A stretch of 64,000 nt of DNA from Octopus vulgaris (lineage: Eukaryota): assembly GCA_951406725.2 (NCBI GenBank), contig OX597815.1:66650001-66714000 (forward strand), in the 5' to 3' direction. Under the pieces are notes generated by a model. It saw only the letters and a list, made by a program, of their open reading frames with translations. It was not told the DNA's origin and ran no database searches. This document shows positions 6,155 to 62,560 of this stretch, piece by piece. Position numbers and translations under genes: made by a program. Within the stretch, counting starts at the first letter, position 1. Each line of letters starts with the position of its first letter.

Positions 6155-6550
6155 TGGTAAGTAGCTTGCTTACGAACCACATGGTTCCGGGTTCAGTCCA
6201 ACTACGTGGCACCTTGGGCAAGTGTCTTCTACTATAGCCTCGGGCCAACCAATGTCTTGTGAGTGGATTTGGTAGACGGAAACTGAAAGAAGCCCGTCGT
6301 ATATATGTATATATATAGGTATGTGTGTGTATATGTTTGTGTGTCTGTATTTGTCCCCCCAACATCGCTTTACAACCGATGCTGGTGTATTTACGTACCC
6401 GTAAATTAGCGGTTCGGCAAAATAGACCGATAGTATAAGTACTAGGCTTACAAAGAATAAGTCCTGGGGTCGATTTGCTCGACTAAAGGTGATGCTCCAG
6501 CATGGCCACAGTCAAATGACTGAAACAAGTAAAAGAGTAAAAAGAGTAAA
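6155..6550 (+). mobile_element. SINE family A (tRNA-derived, Octopus-type), near full length
   Basis: B-box-like ggttcagtcc, cttgggcaagtgtcttct core, central microsatellite and (aaaagagt)n tail. More than 15 related copies occur in the window. Confidence 0.9.
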
Positions 6551-10260: not shown

Positions 10261-10642
10261 TATATTGAGGGTACTACTATTCGTAGATACCAACACGCTA
10301 AGAGGGACCAATGCGGTCAAAACTACTAAAAATAAACAAAATTTTACCGAATGCAAAACTTCAAAACACATCATTTTAAAAAGAATTCAGTTACATATCA
10401 CATGTGATTTCGCATTTAATGCAGAATATGCATTTCATGTTCGTCAGTGCAACAAACTCAAGAAATATAAGAAAAAACATAACATTACAAACTCGATAGC
10501 CAACCGTAGAATTCGTCGTAGCATGTACGAATGTTTATCCTTACATATCTATGAAAATGGCGGGCTTTTTCGCAATGCATTTCGGTAACAAATTGCCTAG
10601 TCGGAATAAAAATTCAGTATTGAACTATTCCGGTGAAAAAAT

Positions 10643-12857: not shown

Positions 12858-14036
12858 ATATAGGGAAATGTGTTGTTGAAAATGCACCTAAATTTCAAAA
12901 ATTCGTAAATGTTTAAAATACATTTATTTATATATATACCAAACTAGTTTCAACAATAGTTTTTGTTTATCAATGGTAAAAGTTTAAAATTATGAATTAG
13001 AAAAACATCTTTAAAATTTTCAATCTTGACAAATTAAAATGTTTCAATGTTGGCAAATTAACATGTTCAAAACAGATAAATTTAGCATTATGAATTAGGA
13101 GGACAGGTGCAAGTTTGAATGTTCATAGCAGTCAATAATATTAAAACTGTATATCAATTTGTTTGAATATGTACAAAGTTCATTAATGTTAGTGGTGATC
13201 GACGAGTCATACTGAGTTAAGAGAGAAAAATTAGGGAGAAATGAAAATAGTTTTTAAAAAAACGGGAATTTGTTTTACAGTTTCTCTGATCCTCTTTCCG
13301 TAGGTATGTTTCGAGATCAGATCTATTTATAATTTTTTCCGCGAGCTGATTTGATTTTTGATTCGTTAAAGTACTGGTGACGTTTTGACAAGCAACTAAG
13401 TTTGTCATTCTACTTGGCTTTCCTGTGGAGACGGTCGTCAGTCGTTCCGGTTGGTTGGTTCTCATAAAGGGTCATTTCGTTGTATTTGCTGAAGTTCGGT
13501 TTTGATTGGTCTGGAGTTGTGTGACGTCAGCAACTGGTGTTTGTAAATTTCATTGGAAATTGTAAAATTTCATTGGACGTCAGCAACTGGTGTTTGTAAA
13601 ATTTCATTGGACGTCAGCAACTGGTGTTTGTAAAATTTCATTGGACTTCGGCAACTGCTGTTTGTGTGGTGACTTGGAGTTGCGGTTTCAGAACCCGGGT
13701 AGAAGATTATTACGACAGTTTTTTAAAAAATTGTTTGTTGTTCTTGATTGTTTTTTTTTTGTGTGGTGAAATTGAGTCTTTTTCTTTTCTTTTTACTGCT
13801 TTTTCTTCTTTCTAAAGGATATTCAGCTATGGTTTATAGTTTTTAATCAGTATGTTTTCCTTATTTAAATGGAATTGGGTTAAATATATTTTTCTAATTC
13901 ATAATTTTAAACTTTTACTATTGATAAACAAAAACTATTGTTGAAACTAATTTGGTATATATATAAATAAATGTATTTTAAACATTTACGAGTTTTTGAA
14001 ATTTAGGTGCATTTTCAACAACACATTTCCCTATAT
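12858..14036. mobile_element. Fold-back element with 148-bp inverted termini and internal 34-bp tandem repeat
   Basis: Arms 12858-13005 and 13889-14036 differ at only about 3 positions. gacgtcagcaactggtgtttgtaaaatttcattg repeats about 4 times at 13523-13663. Confidence 0.8.
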
Positions 14037-19191: not shown

Positions 19192-20070
19192 CCCAGCGAA
19201 TTGGCAGAGTTATTAGATATGCGGACAAAATAATTCCAGCTATTTGTTCTGACTTTGCACTCTTAGTTCAAATCCGGCCGAGTTCAGCGTTGCCTTTCAT
19301 CCTTTTGGGTTTGCAAGAAAAAAGGTACCAAGCCAGGTCGGTAGAGTGGCATAAGTTGTAAGGAAATCGGACCTGATGCCTTGTAACATTTGTTCCGGCG
19401 CTTTGTGTTCTGAGTTAAAATCCTGCCATACACTATGTGAGTCATATACTTAATTCCTCACCAAGTTTAACACCAGCATCTGGTGACTTGGATGTCTGTA
19501 ATGGAGTCCGTTCTTTTGCATGCATTCAGACCAGGACTCTAGTTTGAGATTACCTTCCCTCCACCAGACGTGGGAGCTTTGTAAAGGGTCATGAGTACCG
19601 CCTCCCCTCTTGACTAAAATCTAGTCAAGGTTTTGAGATGCCTTAAACAAATTCTAAGTAGGCATTTCATTTTGATTTGGGTCAACCCCCTTTTTTCTAC
19701 ATTATCTCAATTCACTTAGCTGTCGGGAAATTGGTACCAAATCACTTGGGGATTCTACCCGCAATAGACAAGCGTCTTATCTCGGGTAAGATTTACCCCT
19801 CCTTCGCTTAACACCATGAAATAAAAGCTAGACATGACCATTAAATGCTCTTAAGCATTTGAAAGTACTCACATGTAGATGGAAATGTACCCTATGATGG
19901 CTCTTGTAATTAAGAACGCGTAATCAGTGAGTAAAATAAGGTGCAGACCTAGCTGTGTGGGCAAGAAGCTCGCTCTGCAACCATGCGGTTTCGAGTTCAG
20001 TCCCACTGCGTAGCACCTTAGCCTTGTGAGTGAAATTGGTAGATGTATGTATGTATGTATGTATGTATGT

Positions 20071-20425
20071 ATGTCAAGACCCTGCCTCAGTAAAGCTGGA
20101 CTCATGAGTCATCTTCGTAGTCATAAAACGAGACAGATGAGTGACAACCTGGCCACTGGTGGTGGTGTAACACACCATGCTAATCATATCTGTCGGGCAT
20201 GTGGAAGAGAATGTAATTCGGCTGGAGGACTTAAACGACATGCAAAGGTACATGAAGCCCAGTTACAACTACAGCCGGCTATTACCAGTAAAGGTCTTAG
20301 TTGCCAATTTTGTACAAGACATTGTAGATCTTTAGCTGGGCTAAAAAGTCACGTTCGATCACAGCACTAGTAACAGTTAAGCTTCGTGCAATGGCCATAC
20401 TCGATAACGAGGGGGCAGCCATATT
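20071..20425 (+). mobile_element. RTE-like LINE 3' end encoding 2.5 C2H2 zinc fingers
   Basis: PCLSKAGLMSHLRSH, CRACGRECNSAGGLKRHAKVH and CQFCTRHCRSLAGLKSHVRSQH*, followed by a short UTR with hairpin and a (TGTA)n tail. No TGEKP linkers. Confidence 0.7.
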
Positions 20426-21712: not shown

Positions 21713-22011
21713 AAGGTACCACCTGAAGAGCAAGATAGGGCTGGAGAGGAGACACCTGTCGCGAAGAAAAGATGGCAGGATGTCGTGAGGAAGTTGGGAG
21801 TGACTGTCCCGGCTTAGTTTCGCCCATTGTGGGGGCGAGGTTTGGTCGCTGAATTTCCGGCCATTTTTGTGAAAGTGTGTTTGTGTTAATTTTTAATTTA
21901 TATATATGATTCATCCAATTTTTTTATTATAAACTCAGCTCATCTATATGTATGAAACGACCTGTATTGTCCTTCTATGTAAAATATATTTATTATCATA
22001 ATAAAGAAAAT
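21713..22011 (+). mobile_element. 3' end of a Tx1/L1-like LINE
   Basis: Translates as RYHLKSKIGLERRHLS / KRWQDVVRKLGV*, resembling Tx1 ORF2 C-termini. An AT-rich UTR follows and ends in aataaagaaaa. Confidence 0.5.
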
Positions 22012-22219
22012 TGGTGATTATCACACACTGAAGACGGGTAACTACTCAGAAACCTGGGTCTGTGTGTATCACGTAAGGCTAAGGATGGTAGCGATGACCT
22101 CCCCTCGCAAATACTAATTGGACGCAGTCAGTGTGTTGTTAGCCAGCTGGAGAAGATGTCTTCCTGGGGCTAAAAACAACAGTAACATCGTGCTCTATGG
22201 AACCGCTACATTTAGTTGG

Positions 22220-22223
<4 letters not shown>
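22012..22223 (+). mobile_element. Partial diverged copy of the 353-bp HHR repeat family
   Basis: Colinear blocks are shared with the minus strand of the 353-bp unit: tgtgtatca, gatgac.tccc...gcaaatact, gccagctggag, cctggggctaaaaac.acagta.catc, tggcaaa. Confidence 0.8.
22014..22072 (+). ncRNA. Type I hammerhead ribozyme, diverged relative of the 353-bp family
   Basis: GUGAU-UAU-CACACA-CUGAAGA-CGGGUA-AC-UACUCA-GAAA-CCUGGG-UC^UGUGUG-U-AUCAC. The core is intact, with one C-A mismatch at the base of stem II. Confidence 0.85.
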
Positions 22224-22292
<69 letters not shown>

Positions 22293-22672
22293 TAAACGAA
22301 AGACGGTCTTCTTTCAATTTCCGTTTACCAAATCCACTCACAAGGCTTTGGTCGGTTTGAGGTTATAGTAGAAGCCACTTGCCCAAGATTCCACGCAGTG
22401 GGACCGAACACGGAACCATATGGTTGGGAAGCAAGCTTCTTACCACACAACCACGCCTGCACATAAATTTTAACAGCAAAAGCTTATATGGACCCCGGTT
22501 GAGATCACTTGTGTAAAGCATTGTTTCTGAAGATAGGGTTCCCGCCCAACGGATGAAATATGACAGTATTTTGGTCGGGTGCAAATTATTTCAAAATGAG
22601 GAATAAGTAACAAAAGGATAAAACTTGCAATAAAGTTTTAATTAAAACGTCTTTTGAATATTTACACGTATT

Positions 22673-23120
22673 GGCGCTGGCCTGACTATGTGGTAAGAAA
22701 TTTGCTTCCCAACCACATGGTTTCGGGTTCAGTCCCACCGAGTGACACCTTCGGCAATTGTCTTCTAATATAGCTCCAGGCCGATCAAAGGCTTGTGAAG
22801 AGTGTTTTAGTTGTTGGAAACTGCAAGAAGCCCGTCGTATACATACACATACACACATATATGTATTATGTGTATATATACATGCATGTATGTGTGTGTG
22901 TGTGTCTGTCTGTCTGTCTGTGTGTTCGTGCATGTGCTTGTCCCTCACTCCCGCTTGTCAGCTGATGTTTGTTAACGTCTACGTAATCTTGCGGTTCGGC
23001 AATAGAGAGCGATCGAAATAAATACTAGACTTAAAAAATAAGTATTGGGGTTGATTCGTTCGACTCAAACTTCGGTACCCCAGCATCACCGTAGTTCAAT
23101 GCTTAAAGCAAGTGAATAAA
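22673..23120 (+). mobile_element. SINE family A
   Basis: Head, core and tail motifs present. Confidence 0.8.
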
Positions 23121-26707: not shown

Positions 26708-26746
<39 letters not shown>

Positions 26747-26840
26747 ATCCAAACAAGAAAACACAAAAAAACACAACAACGCGAGGACGTGAAACAAATA
26801 TAGTATTATTGGACGCTCGGGAAAGAAGGGAAGAAAGAGG

Positions 26841-26875
26841 GTTTAACGTTTCGAGCGGAGCTCTTCGTCGGAAAC
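26841..26875 (-). ncRNA. Minimal hammerhead-like motif (CCGACGA core), same family as 49841
   Basis: GUUU-CCGACGA-A-GAGC-UCC-GCUC-GAAA-CG-UU-AAAC. Confidence 0.5.
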
Positions 26876-27221
26876 ATAAGAGAAGGAAAGATCCAGAGAA
26901 GGGAAGACAAAGGGAAAAAATCGCCAACGGTACACACGAGGTCACATTTATATATATATATATATATATATGAAAGTAAGTATGTATACATACATACGGG
27001 TTAATAAGGCTATCATTAGTTTCATGCCGAGAGAAATTCCTCAACAATTTTCAAGCCTATCACATGGAAGACAAGTACCAACGTTCCATGTGACAAGCTT
27101 GATAACAATTGAGAAATTCTTCTCGGCATGAAGCCAATGGTAGCCTTGTTAACCCACGAATAAAGAATATTTATCCACCAAAGCCGTGGTGGGCACTCAT
27201 TTACACTGTCCGATATGTGTG

Positions 27222-31154: not shown

Positions 31155-31980
31155 GGTAAGAAGCTTGACATCATTTGAGGTAAGAAGCTTGGCATCATTT
31201 GAGGTAAGAAGCTTGCTTCCCCACCACATGGTTCCGGGTTCAGTCCCACAGCGTGACACCTTGGGCAAGTATCTTCTACGATAACCTCGGACCGATCAAA
31301 CCCTTCTGAGTGGATTTAATAGACGGAATCTGAAAGAAGCCCGTCGTGTGTGTGTCTGTGTAACTATGTTTCTCCTCCATCACCGCTTGACAACCAGTGT
31401 TGGTGTTCTTATGTCCCTGTAACTTAGCGGTTCGACAAAAAGACACTGATAGAGTACTCTTACTCATTTTACTCTTTTACTTGTTTCAGTCATTTGACTG
31501 CGGCCATGCTGGAGCACCGCCTTTAGTCGAGCAAATCGACCCCGGGACTTATTCTTTGTAAGCCCAGTACTTATTCTATCGGTATCTTTTTGCCGAACCG
31601 CTAAGTGACGGGGATGTAAACACACCAGCATCGGTTGTCAAGCGATGTTGGGGGACAAACACAGACACACAAACACATACACACACACACACACACACAC
31701 ATATATACATATAAACGACAGGCTTCTTTCAGTTTCCGTCTACCAAATCTACTCACAAGGCATTGGTCGGCCCGGGGCTATAGCAGAAGACACTTGCCCA
31801 AGATGCCACGCAGTGGGACTGAACCCGGAATCATGTGGTTGGTTAGCAAGCTACTTACCACACAGCCACTTCTGCGCCTATACGTACCAGGTTTTTTTTA
31901 AGTATTGGCGTCGATTCATTTGACTAAAAGTTCCTCAAGGCGGTGCCCCAGCATGGCTGCAGTCAAATGACTGAAACATA
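31155..31980. mobile_element. Nested SINE A: young minus copy (about 31465-31880) inside a plus copy
   Basis: The plus copy runs 31155-31460 and resumes at about 31885. Its head has a 24-bp tandem triplication (ggtaagaagcttg). Confidence 0.85.
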
Positions 31981-39063: not shown

Positions 39064-39095
<32 letters not shown>

Positions 39096-39293
39096 ATGAT
39101 AAATATCAAAGTGAGTTATATACAGTAGCGGTAACACATCGTGACGTATTTTTGCCATTTCAATATGGCTAACCCCTAAGGGTGGATGCTACTGTAGTTT
39201 TTAGCCCCAGGAGGACACACTCCTCCAGCTGGCCATAGACACACTTTCTGTGTCCTGTCATTATTTGCAAAGGGAAGTCATCCTTCCCGTCTT

Positions 39294-39363
39294 CAACTTA
39301 TGATACACACGGACTCGAGTTTCGAGGTATTGACCTCTCGTCAGCGTGTGACAATCATAGTTG
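39294..39363 (-). ncRNA. Type I hammerhead ribozyme, copy 1 (core 39306-39350)
   Basis: Minus strand reads CACACG-CUGACGA-GAGGU-CAAU-ACCUC-GAAA-CUCGAG-UC^CGUGUG, with all core nucleotides and stems I, II and III. Stem I extends via UAUGAU/AUCAUA and CAAC/GUUG beyond an internal loop. Predicted cleavage is between 39312 and 39311. Confidence 0.93.
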
Positions 39364-39646
39364 TCGCCGAGAATTAGATTTCCTTCACAAATACTTATAC
39401 TTTTTCCAGCGTCCACTGTCGCTGATATTGAAAAAGTGAAATCAAACAATGATAAATATCAAAGTGAGTTATATACAGTAGCGGTAACACATCGTGACGT
39501 ATTTTTGCCATTTCAATATGGCTAACCCCTAAGGGTGGATGCTACTGTAGTTTTTAGCCCCAGGAGGACACACTCCTCCAGCTGGCCATAGACACACTTT
39601 CTGTGTCCTGTCAGTATTTGCAAAGGGAAGTCATCCTTCCCGTCTT

Positions 39647-39716
39647 CAACTTATGATACACACGGACTCGAGTTTCGAGGTATTGACCTCTCGTCAGCGT
39701 GTGACAATCATAGTTG
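39647..39716 (-). ncRNA. Type I hammerhead ribozyme, copy 2 (core 39659-39703)
   Basis: Identical to copy 1, offset 353 bp. Confidence 0.93.
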
Positions 39717-40000
39717 TCGCCGAGAATTAGATTTCCTTCACAAATACTTATACTTTTTCCAGCGTCCACTGTCGCTGATTTTGAAAAAGTGAAATCAAAC
39801 AATGATAAATATCAAAGTGAGTTATATACAGTAGCGGTAACACATCGTGACGTATTTTTGCCATTTCAATATGGCTAACCCCTAAGGGTGGATGCTACTG
39901 TAGTTTTTTAGCCCCAGGAGGACACACTCCTCCAGCTGGCCATAGACACACTTTCTGTGTCCTGTCAGTATTTGCAAAGGGAAGACATCCTTCCCGTCTT

Positions 40001-40070
40001 CAACTTATGATACACACGGACTCGAGTTTCGAGGTATTGACCTCTCGTCAGCGTGTGACAATCATAGTTG
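40001..40070 (-). ncRNA. Type I hammerhead ribozyme, copy 3 (core 40013-40057)
   Basis: Identical to copy 1, offset 707 bp. Confidence 0.93.
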
Positions 40071-40311
40071 TCGCCGAGAATTAGATTTCCTTCACAAATA
40101 CTTATACTTTTTCCAGCGTCCACTGTCGCTGATATTGAAAAAGTGAAATCAAACAATGATAAATATCAAAGTGAGTTATATACAGTAGCGGTAACACATC
40201 GTGACGTATTTTTGCCATTTCAATATATATATATATATATAATAGAAATATTAAAATTACTAAGTCTCTCTAAGAATGCCATATTAGTATGGCGATAACT
40301 ATAACTATATA

Positions 40312-43942: not shown

Positions 43943-44640
43943 TTCTTTAACCTCACCATCAGAACATCACTCCTCTACTCAAATTATTTCTAACTGTCCA
44001 TCTCTATATCACTACCTTCAACTAAGGAAAAGAAGGAAGGAAAATATCGCCAATGATCCACGTGCGATTACATTTTTGAAGTAACTGGAAGCAGGAAGAC
44101 AAGGACAAAGTGCTTTCTGGGATAGGATGCACACACACACTTAATACCACGCGCACACACACATGCTATCACACATACACGCATGCTACCATACACACAC
44201 ACAGTTAATACCACACACCGCATATACACACACGCTACCACGCACGCACGCACACACACGGAGTTACTTCCACACACACATGCTACCATACATGCAAACG
44301 CTATCGCACACACACATACACACACACACGCCACCATACACACACACATACCGACCATCTTCACACTCTCCTGTCCCAGAAAGCATTGTTTTCCTTGCTC
44401 TACTTCTGGTAACTTCAAAAATGTAACCGTACGTGGATTATTGGCGATTTTTTCCTTCCTTCTTTTCCCTTTGGACTTTCCTGTTTTTCCTGTTTCCGAA
44501 GAAGCGCTATGCTCGAAACGTAAAACAACTACCTTTTTCCTTCTCCGAGCGTCATATTAATACTTTGCTTGTCCTCACGTTAGTTTGGGTTTTTTTTTGT
44601 TTTTTACTCCCCCGTTTGTTTTCTGTTTTTCGAATTAATT
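42541..44640. repeat. Composite nested inverted repeat with cryptic (TG)/(CA) arms
   Basis: 42541-42690 is the reverse complement of 44345-44517, and a third copy lies at 44020-44130. 42780-43110 is mirrored by 43380-43770. Confidence 0.7.
44491..44527 (+). ncRNA. Degenerate minimal hammerhead-like motif
   Basis: UGUUU-CCGAAGA-A-GCGC-UAU-GCUC-GAAA-CG-UA-AAACA. Confidence 0.45.
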
Positions 44641-48887: not shown

Positions 48888-49062
48888 CATAAGGCTGTGT
48901 GTTTGACTTTGTGTTTGTTAGTTTGTTCCCAACGTGTGTGTCTGTGTATGCGCGAGCGCGTTTTATGTCAAGTTATAAATAAAAACAATTTAACATTAAA
49001 TTGAAGGATTACTCACTACTTTTTCAATGCGTGTTTAATAAACTTTTAGAAGGAAAATGTTG

Positions 49063-49102
49063 ATAGTGACTTCGAAGTTTCGGCTTGACCTCGTCAGACT
49101 GT
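49063..49102 (-). ncRNA. Minimal hammerhead ribozyme
   Basis: AGU-CUGACGA-GGU-CAA-GCC-GAAA-CUUCGAAG-UC^ACU. Intact core and palindromic stem III, but a short stem I. Confidence 0.65.
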
Positions 49103-49840
49103 TTGACACGAAGGCAAGTAAGCCGAAAATTCCGAAAATTCCATGTTACTATAAAACTTTGCCTTCTAAAATTGTGTATATATATATATATACATTCACG
49201 CGCGCGCGCGCACACACTCACACACACACACACACACACACACATGAATATATATATGCATATGAATTTTATGCATAACTCCTAAGAGTCTACGTTCTCC
49301 TTATTCTTTAAATATATAAATATATGAACCACGGTTTAAATGGTTACCTTACAGTACTTTCACTGGATTTATGATCCCTTTATGAAGTTTATTACCTTTA
49401 CTTGATTATGTGTGTGTGTTTGTGTGTGTAAATTTCATCCGAGTGTTAACCCTGGAATTTACTTTATTATGCTCATCAACGTGTACAGGCTATCAGACAA
49501 TACTTAAAATCGGTGGCTTATCGTTTTACAGATCAAACTTATGAAAATCCACAAATATCCGTAGAGCTTACATAATTATTCACAAGGAAAATGGAGTGAG
49601 CAAATTGTTTTATTACATAACTTTACAATTGTTTCATCGATATTCGGTCTCAAGGTTATTGCTATATTGTATAATATATGCAACTAAGATTCCTGAGGTA
49701 TCATTATACTGATATAATCGAACGTAGACTCTTAGGAATTATGCATAAAATTCATATATATATTCAATATGTGACCGCGTGTGTATCGTTGGCGATTTTT
49801 TTCCTCCGTCTTCCCTTCCTTGGATCTTTCCTTTTCCTAT

Positions 49841-49875
49841 GTTTCTGACGAAGAGCTCCGCTCGAAACGTTAAAT
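49841..49875 (+). ncRNA. Minimal (dimer-type) hammerhead-like motif within a ~210-bp dispersed repeat
   Basis: GUUU-CUGACGA-A-GAGC-UCC-GCUC-GAAA-CG-UU-AAAU. Stem III is reduced to the palindrome AACGUU. Confidence 0.55.
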
Positions 49876-49972
49876 CCTCCTTCTTTCTTTCCTTTCTTGA
49901 GCGTCCAATAACACTATACTTGTTCCACGTCCTCGCGTTGTTGTGTTTTCTTTTTGTGTTTTCATTTTGGAT

Positions 49973-61387: not shown

Positions 61388-61479
61388 TATATACATACAT
61401 ATATTGAGGGGATAAATATAATCCTACCTATCACCTCCATTAGCACATCCTGCCGGATCTTGGCTAACATAGACAATAT

Positions 61480-62560
61480 CCACCTCACTTATCGACGAGG
61501 GAATTAAACGTGCCAAACAATTAGACATGAAAACACGAAAGCACTAAGAACAACAAAACATAACACCACACCTCATCTCAAAACATTACTATTTATATCA
61601 ACACACAACCCCAGAAATAGTGAGGCATTCAACACAATTGTGCAAAATCTGCCTTTACTAACTAGAGATCCAAAAACGAACGACATCCTGAAAACACACA
61701 AACTCATCAAATGCAAAAAGCAAGACAAATCGCTAAAGAGACTACTAACAAATGCGAAGTTTTACAAAACAACCACGAAACGAACGGTTGAAAAATGTGG
61801 ACGCCAAAACTGTGGAACCTGCCCCAATCTACTTGAAGGCTCGGATTTCCTTTTCAAACAAGGACAGAGGTTCACAATTAAAACTAGTTTATGTAATAAA
61901 CTGCTCAGGTTGCGGACACAACTATATTGGACAGACGAGTATGACTTTGATAAAGGGAACCACTCTACATAAAGAGCAAATGCGTTTCCCGCAATACAAG
62001 CAAATTCCTCTCAGTGAACATATAGGAAGATGTGCAGATAACATCAAACCAAATTTCACAGTCTTCCCCTTCTACCAGTGCAAAGACACAATCTCTCCAC
62101 AAGAACGTTTAAATAAACTTTTTTCATTGAAAAATACAGAACACGTCTTAATATGCACACATAACCAACTTTTATCTTTTTACATATTTCAATTCACGAT
62201 TACATCACTATACATAAATCCCCTCACTAAACAAGTTTTTCGAAACCTTTTTTTGTCTGTACATATATATTCCCCTCCCCTTACCTCCCTTGCCCACAAC
62301 AATAACAATAATAACGATAACCAATTACCTCCCCTTATTTTCTACTTGTGAAGTCATTCACTCGTAAATATCATCACATGCAACATGGACAAAATTTCTT
62401 CTTAAGAAAGTACATATTCAAATAAGTAAAATATAATATCATGAATAGCAATAGCGAAACCGGTCGATATATTAAAAATTATATTAAAACTGTGTAAAGT
62501 GTGCGTATTTTCCTTTTTTAATTTCTTATATACATTATGACTCACCACGTGGGGATAATC
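61480..62560 (+). mobile_element. Penelope-like retroelement 3' remnant (linker + GIY-YIG endonuclease + pLTR)
   Basis: FISTHNPRN...KCGRQNCGTCPNL (Cys linker), then after a frameshift VYVINCSGCGHNYIGQT (GIY-YIG) and PLSEHI. A decayed HHR lies downstream. Confidence 0.85.
62436..62470 (+). ncRNA. Decayed Penelope-pLTR hammerhead
   Basis: AUAUC-AUGAAUA-GC-AAUA-GC-GAAA-CCGG-UC-GAUAU followed by attaaa. It lies about 300 bp downstream of the GIY-YIG remnant, and the first core box is mutated. Confidence 0.55.

What the first reader, a model, noticed from the sequence alone, without database searches (positions are those of the whole stretch)
22012..22223. Diverged family member provides covariation evidence for the ribozyme fold
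Seen: about 200 bp colinear with the 353-bp unit. Stem I changes G-C to A-U (CACACG/CGUGUG to CACACA/UGUGUG). Distal stem I changes AUGAU/AUCAU to GUGAU/AUCAC, with the same 3x1 loop. Stem II is a different sequence but still pairs, stem III changes CUCGAG to CCUGGG, and the core is kept. Inference: selection acts on RNA structure, and at least two subfamilies exist.
Basis: seen in the sequence. Interest (0 to 1): 0.8.

Follow-up and report, generated by a model that had tools for sequence, protein, structure and literature searches.

The report
Second subfamily of hammerhead retrozyme repeat
This is a shortened copy from a second subfamily of an abundant non-coding jumping repeat; its paired base changes keep the shape of a hammerhead ribozyme predicted to cut its own RNA, likely in pairs, which makes it a new member of a known class (animal retrozymes) whose cutting is still untested.

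Summary
22012-22223 (+) matches the 353-bp tandem unit (39095-40226, ribozyme on the minus strand) at 75% over 176 nt, E 2e-26, in inverted orientation. The unit matches Rfam Hammerhead_1 (E 2.7e-6, just under the gathering score). Three stem pairs change on both sides and stay Watson-Crick; a fourth does so in the palindromic stem III, which can pair only between two ribozymes. One correction: the conserved stem II closing pair G10.1-C11.1 is a C·A mismatch. Contigs of public runs show that most of these letters, C·A included, are shared by many copies, so a second subfamily exists; its usual stem III is CCCGGG, not CCUGGG. A neutral simulation gives P about 0.0006, or 0.012 with CpG decay; a formal many-copy covariation test could not be run. 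The element fits metazoan non-LTR retrozymes, likely copied by Penelope-like elements into TA microsatellites. This scan has already noted such octopus-like retrozymes many times on other DNA. Cleavage and circular RNA are untested.

The parts
22012..22223 (+). 5'-truncated solo copy of the retrozyme, subfamily B
   Evidence: relatives continue upstream of 22012 (loose ends)
22014..22072 (+). Type I hammerhead motif: stem I 22014-22027 with 22061-22072 (5 bp, 3x1 loop, 6 bp); core 22028-22034 and 22049-22052; predicted cut after C22060
22035..22048 (+). Stem II: C·A at 10.1-11.1, then G-C, G·U, G-C, U-A, 4-nt loop
   Evidence: C and A shared by the subfamily
22052..22059 (+). Self-complementary stem III (2 bp as monomer, 8 bp between two ribozymes)
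   Evidence: monomer hairpin +2.9 kcal/mol; duplex -9.8 kcal/mol
22121..22172 (+). Two downstream helical domains that keep most of the unit's predicted pairs
   Evidence: 16 of 18 pairs kept in these helices; 23 of 27 over all downstream helices
22223..22290 (.). (TA)34 tract abutting the 3' end; likely target or target-derived
39095..40226 (-). Tandem array, 3.2 units of 353-354 bp, over 99% identical, subfamily A, with TA repeats at both ends
39300..39358 (-). Type I hammerhead of unit 1 (predicted cut after 39312); identical motifs at 39653-39711 and 40007-40065
   Evidence: Rfam RF00163 E 2.7e-6
39121..39196 (-). Predicted 9-bp helix closing three hairpins; many genomic copies end at 39141/39494, in the loop of the third hairpin: candidate reverse-transcription start
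   Evidence: fold and pair probabilities; loose ends with AT-rich flanks in 27 and 17 contigs

Best explanation
The stretch is a 5'-truncated copy of a second subfamily of a high-copy, non-coding repeat whose units carry a type I hammerhead motif, predicted to cut its own RNA mainly as a pair of ribozymes and likely copied into TA microsatellites by a Penelope-type reverse transcriptase. Shown: the homology, the motif, the tandem array, many relatives, subfamily-wide letters, the truncation at 22012 and the TA flanks. Inferred steps: (1) tandem source loci are transcribed; (2) two neighbouring hammerheads pair through the palindromic stem III and cut after C17, releasing 353-354-nt monomers; (3) a host ligase closes them into structured circles; (4) a Penelope-like protein nicks AT-rich DNA and starts copying inside the RNA near the hairpin loop at unit position 39141; (5) copying stops early (this copy, about 210 nt) or runs round several times (the 3.2-unit array). 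The cut site is intact in this copy, so its template was an uncut or a re-ligated RNA. The paired changes were fixed in the source lineages, where only foldable RNAs multiplied; this copy is likely inert.
For: Hammerhead match of the unit. Pair retention beyond neutral expectation: P(>=3 compensatory and <=1 broken of 18)=0.0006, 0.012 with CpG bias; with the dimer-only pair 4 of 19, P 7e-5 to 0.003 (rows mutated from the unit). Stem III forms CUCGAG and CCYGGG are both self-complementary; 22054 C>T (27, 26, 22% of depth in X1, X2, X8) and 22057 G>A (24, 17, 16%) run at similar levels; majority 22055 is C (59, 81, 72%). U at 22061 is 67-80% while the mirror CpG product 22062 G>A is 3-7%, so it is inherited rather than decay of single copies. 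No core position varies at 5% or more in the three large runs. Downstream helices keep 23 of 27 pairs, P about 0.035. Circular monomer folds at -116.9 kcal/mol, z -6.7, 0 of 100 shuffles as low; GC 42%. 4477 and 4822 contigs laid on the dimer. A Penelope-type endonuclease remnant lies in the window. Published model: PMC7229834, PMC4209133, PMC11167929, bioRxiv 10.64898/2026.07.22.740005.
Against: C·A at 10.1-11.1 breaks a pair that PMC3088659 calls the most conserved after 15.1-16.1, and Rfam misses this copy. Minimum-energy folds of the isolated motifs do not give the hammerhead junction; stem II has pair probability 0.25-0.31 in the circle. In one search, 22061 U>C (33, 20, 23%) and 22065 U>A (13, 9, 10%) have no listed partner change at 22027 or 22023; linkage could not be read, so these may be mismatched copies or contigs too short to reach the partner. 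Two-sequence pair count is not significant (26 of 500). The 19th pair was added after seeing the data. No target-site duplication or second, inverted arm is visible. In the 2026 preprint only 1 of 9 Xenopus dimers cleaved in vitro.
Confidence: 0.8

Rival explanations
1. Subfamily B is catalytically weak or dead because of C·A at 10.1-11.1; its fold is kept as a handle for the Penelope protein, not for cutting.
For: C·A is subfamily-wide and costs stem II stability (-1.4 against -4.4 kcal/mol). In PMC11167929 ribozyme-dead mutants still insert in vitro and uncut RNA is the main template. The cut site is intact in this copy.
Against: The whole core and the self-complementary stem III are kept across the subfamily. 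A natural U·U mismatch at this position is reported (PMC3088659), and an extra base after A9 is common in Penelope hammerheads (PMC4209133), so C and A may be insertions flanking a G-C closing pair.
Confidence: 0.25
2. The copy is an old, neutrally decayed insertion of the same family as the array, and the apparent covariation is chance plus CpG deamination.
For: The stem I change is two CpG-type transitions. CpG decay is visible in the family (22056 G>A 20, 10, 12%). With 8-fold CpG bias P(>=3 compensatory) alone is 0.05-0.15.
Against: The diagnostic letters are shared by many contigs and the upstream sequence differs as a block; joint P is 0.012 or lower.
Confidence: 0.05
3. The sequence is the terminal repeat (pLTR) of an autonomous Penelope-like element, or a plain satellite spread by DNA recombination, rather than a free retrozyme.
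For: pLTRs carry such hammerheads and are related to retrozymes. Tandem arrays can grow by unequal crossover.
Against: Head-to-tail 353-bp units with no long reading frame in them; only 4 matches in the window, none next to a coding remnant; dispersed copies with a preferred end and AT-rich flanks do not fit a plain satellite.
Confidence: 0.12

Closest known systems
Metazoan non-LTR retrozymes (coral, mussel, axolotl; Cervera and de la Pena 2020, PMC7229834; Li, Clavereau and Pollet 2026, bioRxiv 10.64898/2026.07.22.740005)
   Same: Tandem non-coding units of 150-450 bp (mussel 350-390), GC under 50%, one type I hammerhead per unit, several ribozyme families per genome, solo copies beside multimers, highly paired predicted circle.
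   Different: No cephalopod case turned up in the two searches made. Cleavage and circles are shown there, not here. Subfamily B has C·A at 10.1-11.1. Insertion into TA tracts and a preferred internal 3' end are seen here.
Hammerheads of Penelope-like elements (Cervera and de la Pena 2014, PMC4209133; Frangieh et al. 2024, PMC11167929)
   Same: Short palindromic stem III suited to dimers; covarying families within one genome; internal start of reverse transcription in an AC-rich stem-loop downstream of the ribozyme; AT-rich targets.
   Different: No protein is encoded here; stem I is long and canonical (6+5 bp) rather than minimal.
Rfam RF00163 Hammerhead_1
   Same: Unit matches all 45 model positions, E 2.7e-6.
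   Different: 32.2 bits is below the gathering score of 34; the diverged copy is not detected.

Membership tests
Type I hammerhead ribozyme | Core CUGANGA, GAAA, UH with stems I-III, open stem I | tested here: met
   Both sequences
Type I hammerhead ribozyme | Conserved R10.1-Y11.1 pair | tested here: inconclusive
   Met in the unit (G-C). In subfamily B either C·A replaces it or C and A flank a G-C pair one step out
Type I hammerhead ribozyme | Self-cleavage after H17 | not testable with these tools
   Needs in vitro transcription or raw RNA reads; all runs laid were contigs
Type I hammerhead ribozyme | Significant covariation over many sequences | tested here: inconclusive
   Simulation P 0.0006-0.012; 26 of 500 shuffles with 2 sequences; no full copies obtainable
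Non-LTR retrozyme | Tandem units of 150-450 bp, each with a type I hammerhead | tested here: met
   Subfamily A: 3.2 units, 3 intact motifs. Tandem arrays of subfamily B were not seen in this window
Non-LTR retrozyme | Non-coding, GC below 50% | tested here: met
   GC 42%; no frame of 110 aa or more over either locus
Non-LTR retrozyme | Many dispersed genomic copies | tested here: met
   Thousands of contigs laid for A, hundreds for B, with differing flanks; not a copy count
Non-LTR retrozyme | Expressed as unit-length linear and circular RNA | not testable with these tools
   No run on record as RNA
Non-LTR retrozyme | Target-site duplication where present | tested here: inconclusive
   TA tracts hide any duplication
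Penelope-mobilised element | Preferred internal 3' end and AT-rich target | tested here: inconclusive
   27 and 17 contigs leave the unit at 39494/39141 into AT-rich sequence; this copy ends about 10 nt short of that point and the array 46 nt beyond it
Penelope-mobilised element | Partner element with reverse transcriptase and C-terminal GIY-YIG in the genome | tested here: inconclusive
   Broken remnant at about 61406-62150; 3 of 5 long relatives scanned carry both domains. Intact partner and shared RNA signal not tested

The most novel reading that the evidence does not exclude
Subfamily B is an active natural hammerhead variant with a fixed C·A mismatch (or a two-sided insertion) at the base of stem II, and the CUCGAG/CCCGGG switch is a compensatory change that only makes sense between two ribozymes. 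That would be evolutionary evidence of obligate double-hammerhead cleavage in an invertebrate retrozyme and would let subfamilies avoid pairing with each other, while a conserved cloverleaf marks where the borrowed Penelope enzyme starts copying.
Probability: 0.3. Interest if true: 0.5.

Novelty: new member of a known kind. Interest (0 to 1): 0.25.

Why it matters
It mostly confirms that the array's hammerhead is under selection and extends a known class to a probable octopus genome. The parts worth a specialist's time are small but testable: a natural C·A variant at a position thought nearly fixed, a palindrome switch that reports on dimer cleavage, and a candidate start site for reverse transcription that would help test the proposed retrozyme-Penelope partnership.

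Tried and rejected
Family patterns found 0 matches in metagenome contigs, viral contigs (46) and prokaryote genomes (47). Rfam at gathering threshold found 0 matches in the window; at E<=10 nothing relevant for 21900-22300. A two-sequence profile found only the 4 known copies in the window. Expression: no RNA holder listed; run X5 is only guessed to be RNA, and its high share of subfamily B letters is not used. Summed contig depth is not used as copy number. Simulation rows started from the diverged copy are dropped because its C·A pair is counted as broken from the start, which deflates P. The repeat finder was swamped by microsatellites. Pfam found no family for the endonuclease remnant itself and the word-indexed search of longer proteins found none. 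Look-ups of earlier findings by sequence and by nearby place gave nothing. Literature searches for a 10.1-11.1 mismatch gave 0 papers; this does not show that a C·A variant is unpublished, since subscription papers and supplements were not seen. A U-snRNA-type promoter and LINE target site, suggested by earlier notes, were not tested.

Full report
Observation. The window is microsatellite-rich animal DNA. The 353-bp unit is a 3.2-copy tandem array at 39095-40226, over 99% identical between units and bounded by TA repeats. The stretch 22012-22223 matches its reverse complement: 75% over 176 nt, E 2.4e-26; 152 of 206 ungapped columns, score 180 against at most 54 in 578 random segments. The unit carries a type I hammerhead on the minus strand (Rfam RF00163, 32.2 bits, E 2.7e-6, gathering 34). 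The diverged motif (22014-22072, +) aligns without gaps and differs at 16 of 59 positions. That the genome is an octopus is taken from earlier scan notes and from my recall of such repeat-rich DNA; it was not tested here.

Is the covariation more than chance? Of 18 monomer pairs, 3 change on both sides and stay Watson-Crick, 1 becomes G·U and 1 breaks. Placing 16 substitutions at random on the unit's motif gives this pattern with P 0.0006; with 8-fold CpG mutability, 0.012. The compensatory count alone is weak under CpG bias (0.05-0.15). Adding the pair 15.3-16.3, which can form only between two ribozymes and which I added after seeing the data, gives 4 of 19 and P 7e-5 to 0.003. The pair-count tool, limited by two sequences, gives 26 of 500 shuffles. 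Downstream of the ribozyme 23 of 27 predicted pairs survive, P about 0.035, mostly through one-sided G·U changes.

Private decay or subfamily? Contigs of public runs were laid on both loci. On the unit dimer 4477, 4822, 210 and 4 contigs were laid (40 of 83 variant rows shown); C10.1 (4% and 7% of depth in X1, X2), A11.1 (9%, 11%), G10.2, C11.2 and the distal G appear as recurrent variants. On 21985-22110, 491, 615, 26 and 702 contigs were laid (all 19 variant rows shown). No variant at 5% or more is listed at 22014, 22027, 22035, 22036, 22047, 22048 or 22072. U at 22061 makes 67-80% of depth in X1, X2 and X8 while its mirror CpG product at 22062 is 3-7%, so it is inherited. At 22055 the majority is C (59, 81, 72%), so the usual stem III is CCCGGG and this copy's U is a minority, possibly CpG-derived form. 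22054 C>T and 22057 G>A run at similar levels (27/24, 26/17, 22/16%). In each large run 33-40 contigs continue before 22012 with a shared sequence unlike this window's flank, so the copy is 5'-truncated at the start of stem I. Against a clean picture: 22061 U>C (20-33%) and 22065 U>A (9-13%) have no listed partner change; loose ends show a further type with AUCAC, CGUGUG and CUCGGG; capture favours contigs like the reference; linkage cannot be read. Percentages are my ratios of the depth columns.

Mechanism. Stem III is unstable as a monomer (+2.9 kcal/mol) but forms an 8-bp duplex between two motifs (-10.7 for A, -9.8 for this copy, -14.9 for the majority B form). PMC4209133 describes this dimer arrangement for metazoan type I hammerheads. 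Cuts at 40019, 39665 and 39312 would release 354- and 353-nt monomers, whose circle folds at -116.9 kcal/mol (z -6.7). Many copies leave the unit at 39141/39494 into AT-rich sequence (17 and 27 contigs); this position lies in the CACG loop of a hairpin within a predicted three-hairpin junction. PMC11167929 shows that a Penelope protein nicks AT-rich DNA and starts copying inside the RNA at an AC-rich stem-loop, at two sites 30-40 nt apart, without needing ribozyme cleavage. This copy ends about 10 nt short of the common end, in (TA)34; the array ends 46 nt beyond it. A broken Penelope-type remnant sits at about 61406-62150: its endonuclease part matches the C-terminus of 720-760-aa proteins, 3 of 5 of which show both reverse transcriptase and GIY-YIG in Pfam. 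Transcription, cleavage, circles and the partner enzyme are all inferred.

Comparison and novelty. The anatomy meets the sequence-level definition of non-LTR retrozymes (PMC7229834). Several ribozyme families per genome, with covariation, are already reported there and in PMC4209133. Searches for octopus or cephalopod with ribozyme terms listed no paper on such an element, but this scan has noted octopus-like retrozymes many times (unchecked notes). The C·A feature is the least ordinary point; PMC3088659 reports a natural U·U at that position, and my two searches for a mismatch there returned nothing.

What was read. PMC7229834: passages and sections 13 and 14. bioRxiv 10.64898/2026.07.22.740005: parts 1-3 of 5. 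PMC11167929: parts 1-2 of 4. PMC4209133, PMC3088659, PMC6765202 and bioRxiv 10.1101/2021.04.23.441226: passages. Other papers: search listings only. No supplements were read; they may list cephalopod motifs or C·A variants.

Verdict. Real, correctly read apart from stem II, and a useful confirmation of the array's ribozyme; a new member of a known kind. Interest 0.25.

Noticed in passing
window 10386-10459 (-): A separate type I hammerhead-like motif with a long stem II and a palindromic 5-bp stem III; its minimum-energy fold is the hammerhead shape, but Rfam misses it.
   Followed up: partly
window 49068-49097 (-): Minimal hammerhead-like motif with a very short stem II and palindromic stem III, inside a short inverted repeat 49044-49171; resembles Penelope terminal motifs.
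   Followed up: partly
window 49845-49883 (+): CUGACGA...GAAA motif with stem II but no adjacent stem I, in a repeat with copies at 26743-26947 (-, 88%) and 44418-44605 (+, 71%). May be the rewired hammerhead that earlier notes describe for Naiad-like elements; not tested.
   Followed up: no
window 61406-62150 (+): Frameshifted 3' remnant of a Penelope-like element with a cysteine-rich linker and C-terminal GIY-YIG domain, starting after a TA-rich tract.
   Followed up: partly
window 20014-20370 (+): Reading frame with C2H2 zinc fingers (PF13894, E 5.5e-6); possible exon or retroelement tail.
   Followed up: no
window 22291-22447, 22692-22851, 6155-6422, 31200-31860 and others: Interspersed SINE-like family with several copies in both orientations; one lies right after the TA tract at the 3' end of the diverged copy.
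   Followed up: no
contigs over 21990-22010: One to a few contigs with 13 differences also run into an AT-rich flank at about 22012, hinting that other copies are truncated near the same point.
   Followed up: no
window 12858-13014 and 13880-14036: 157-nt inverted repeat, 97% complementary, 865 nt apart; possible small DNA transposon.
   Followed up: no
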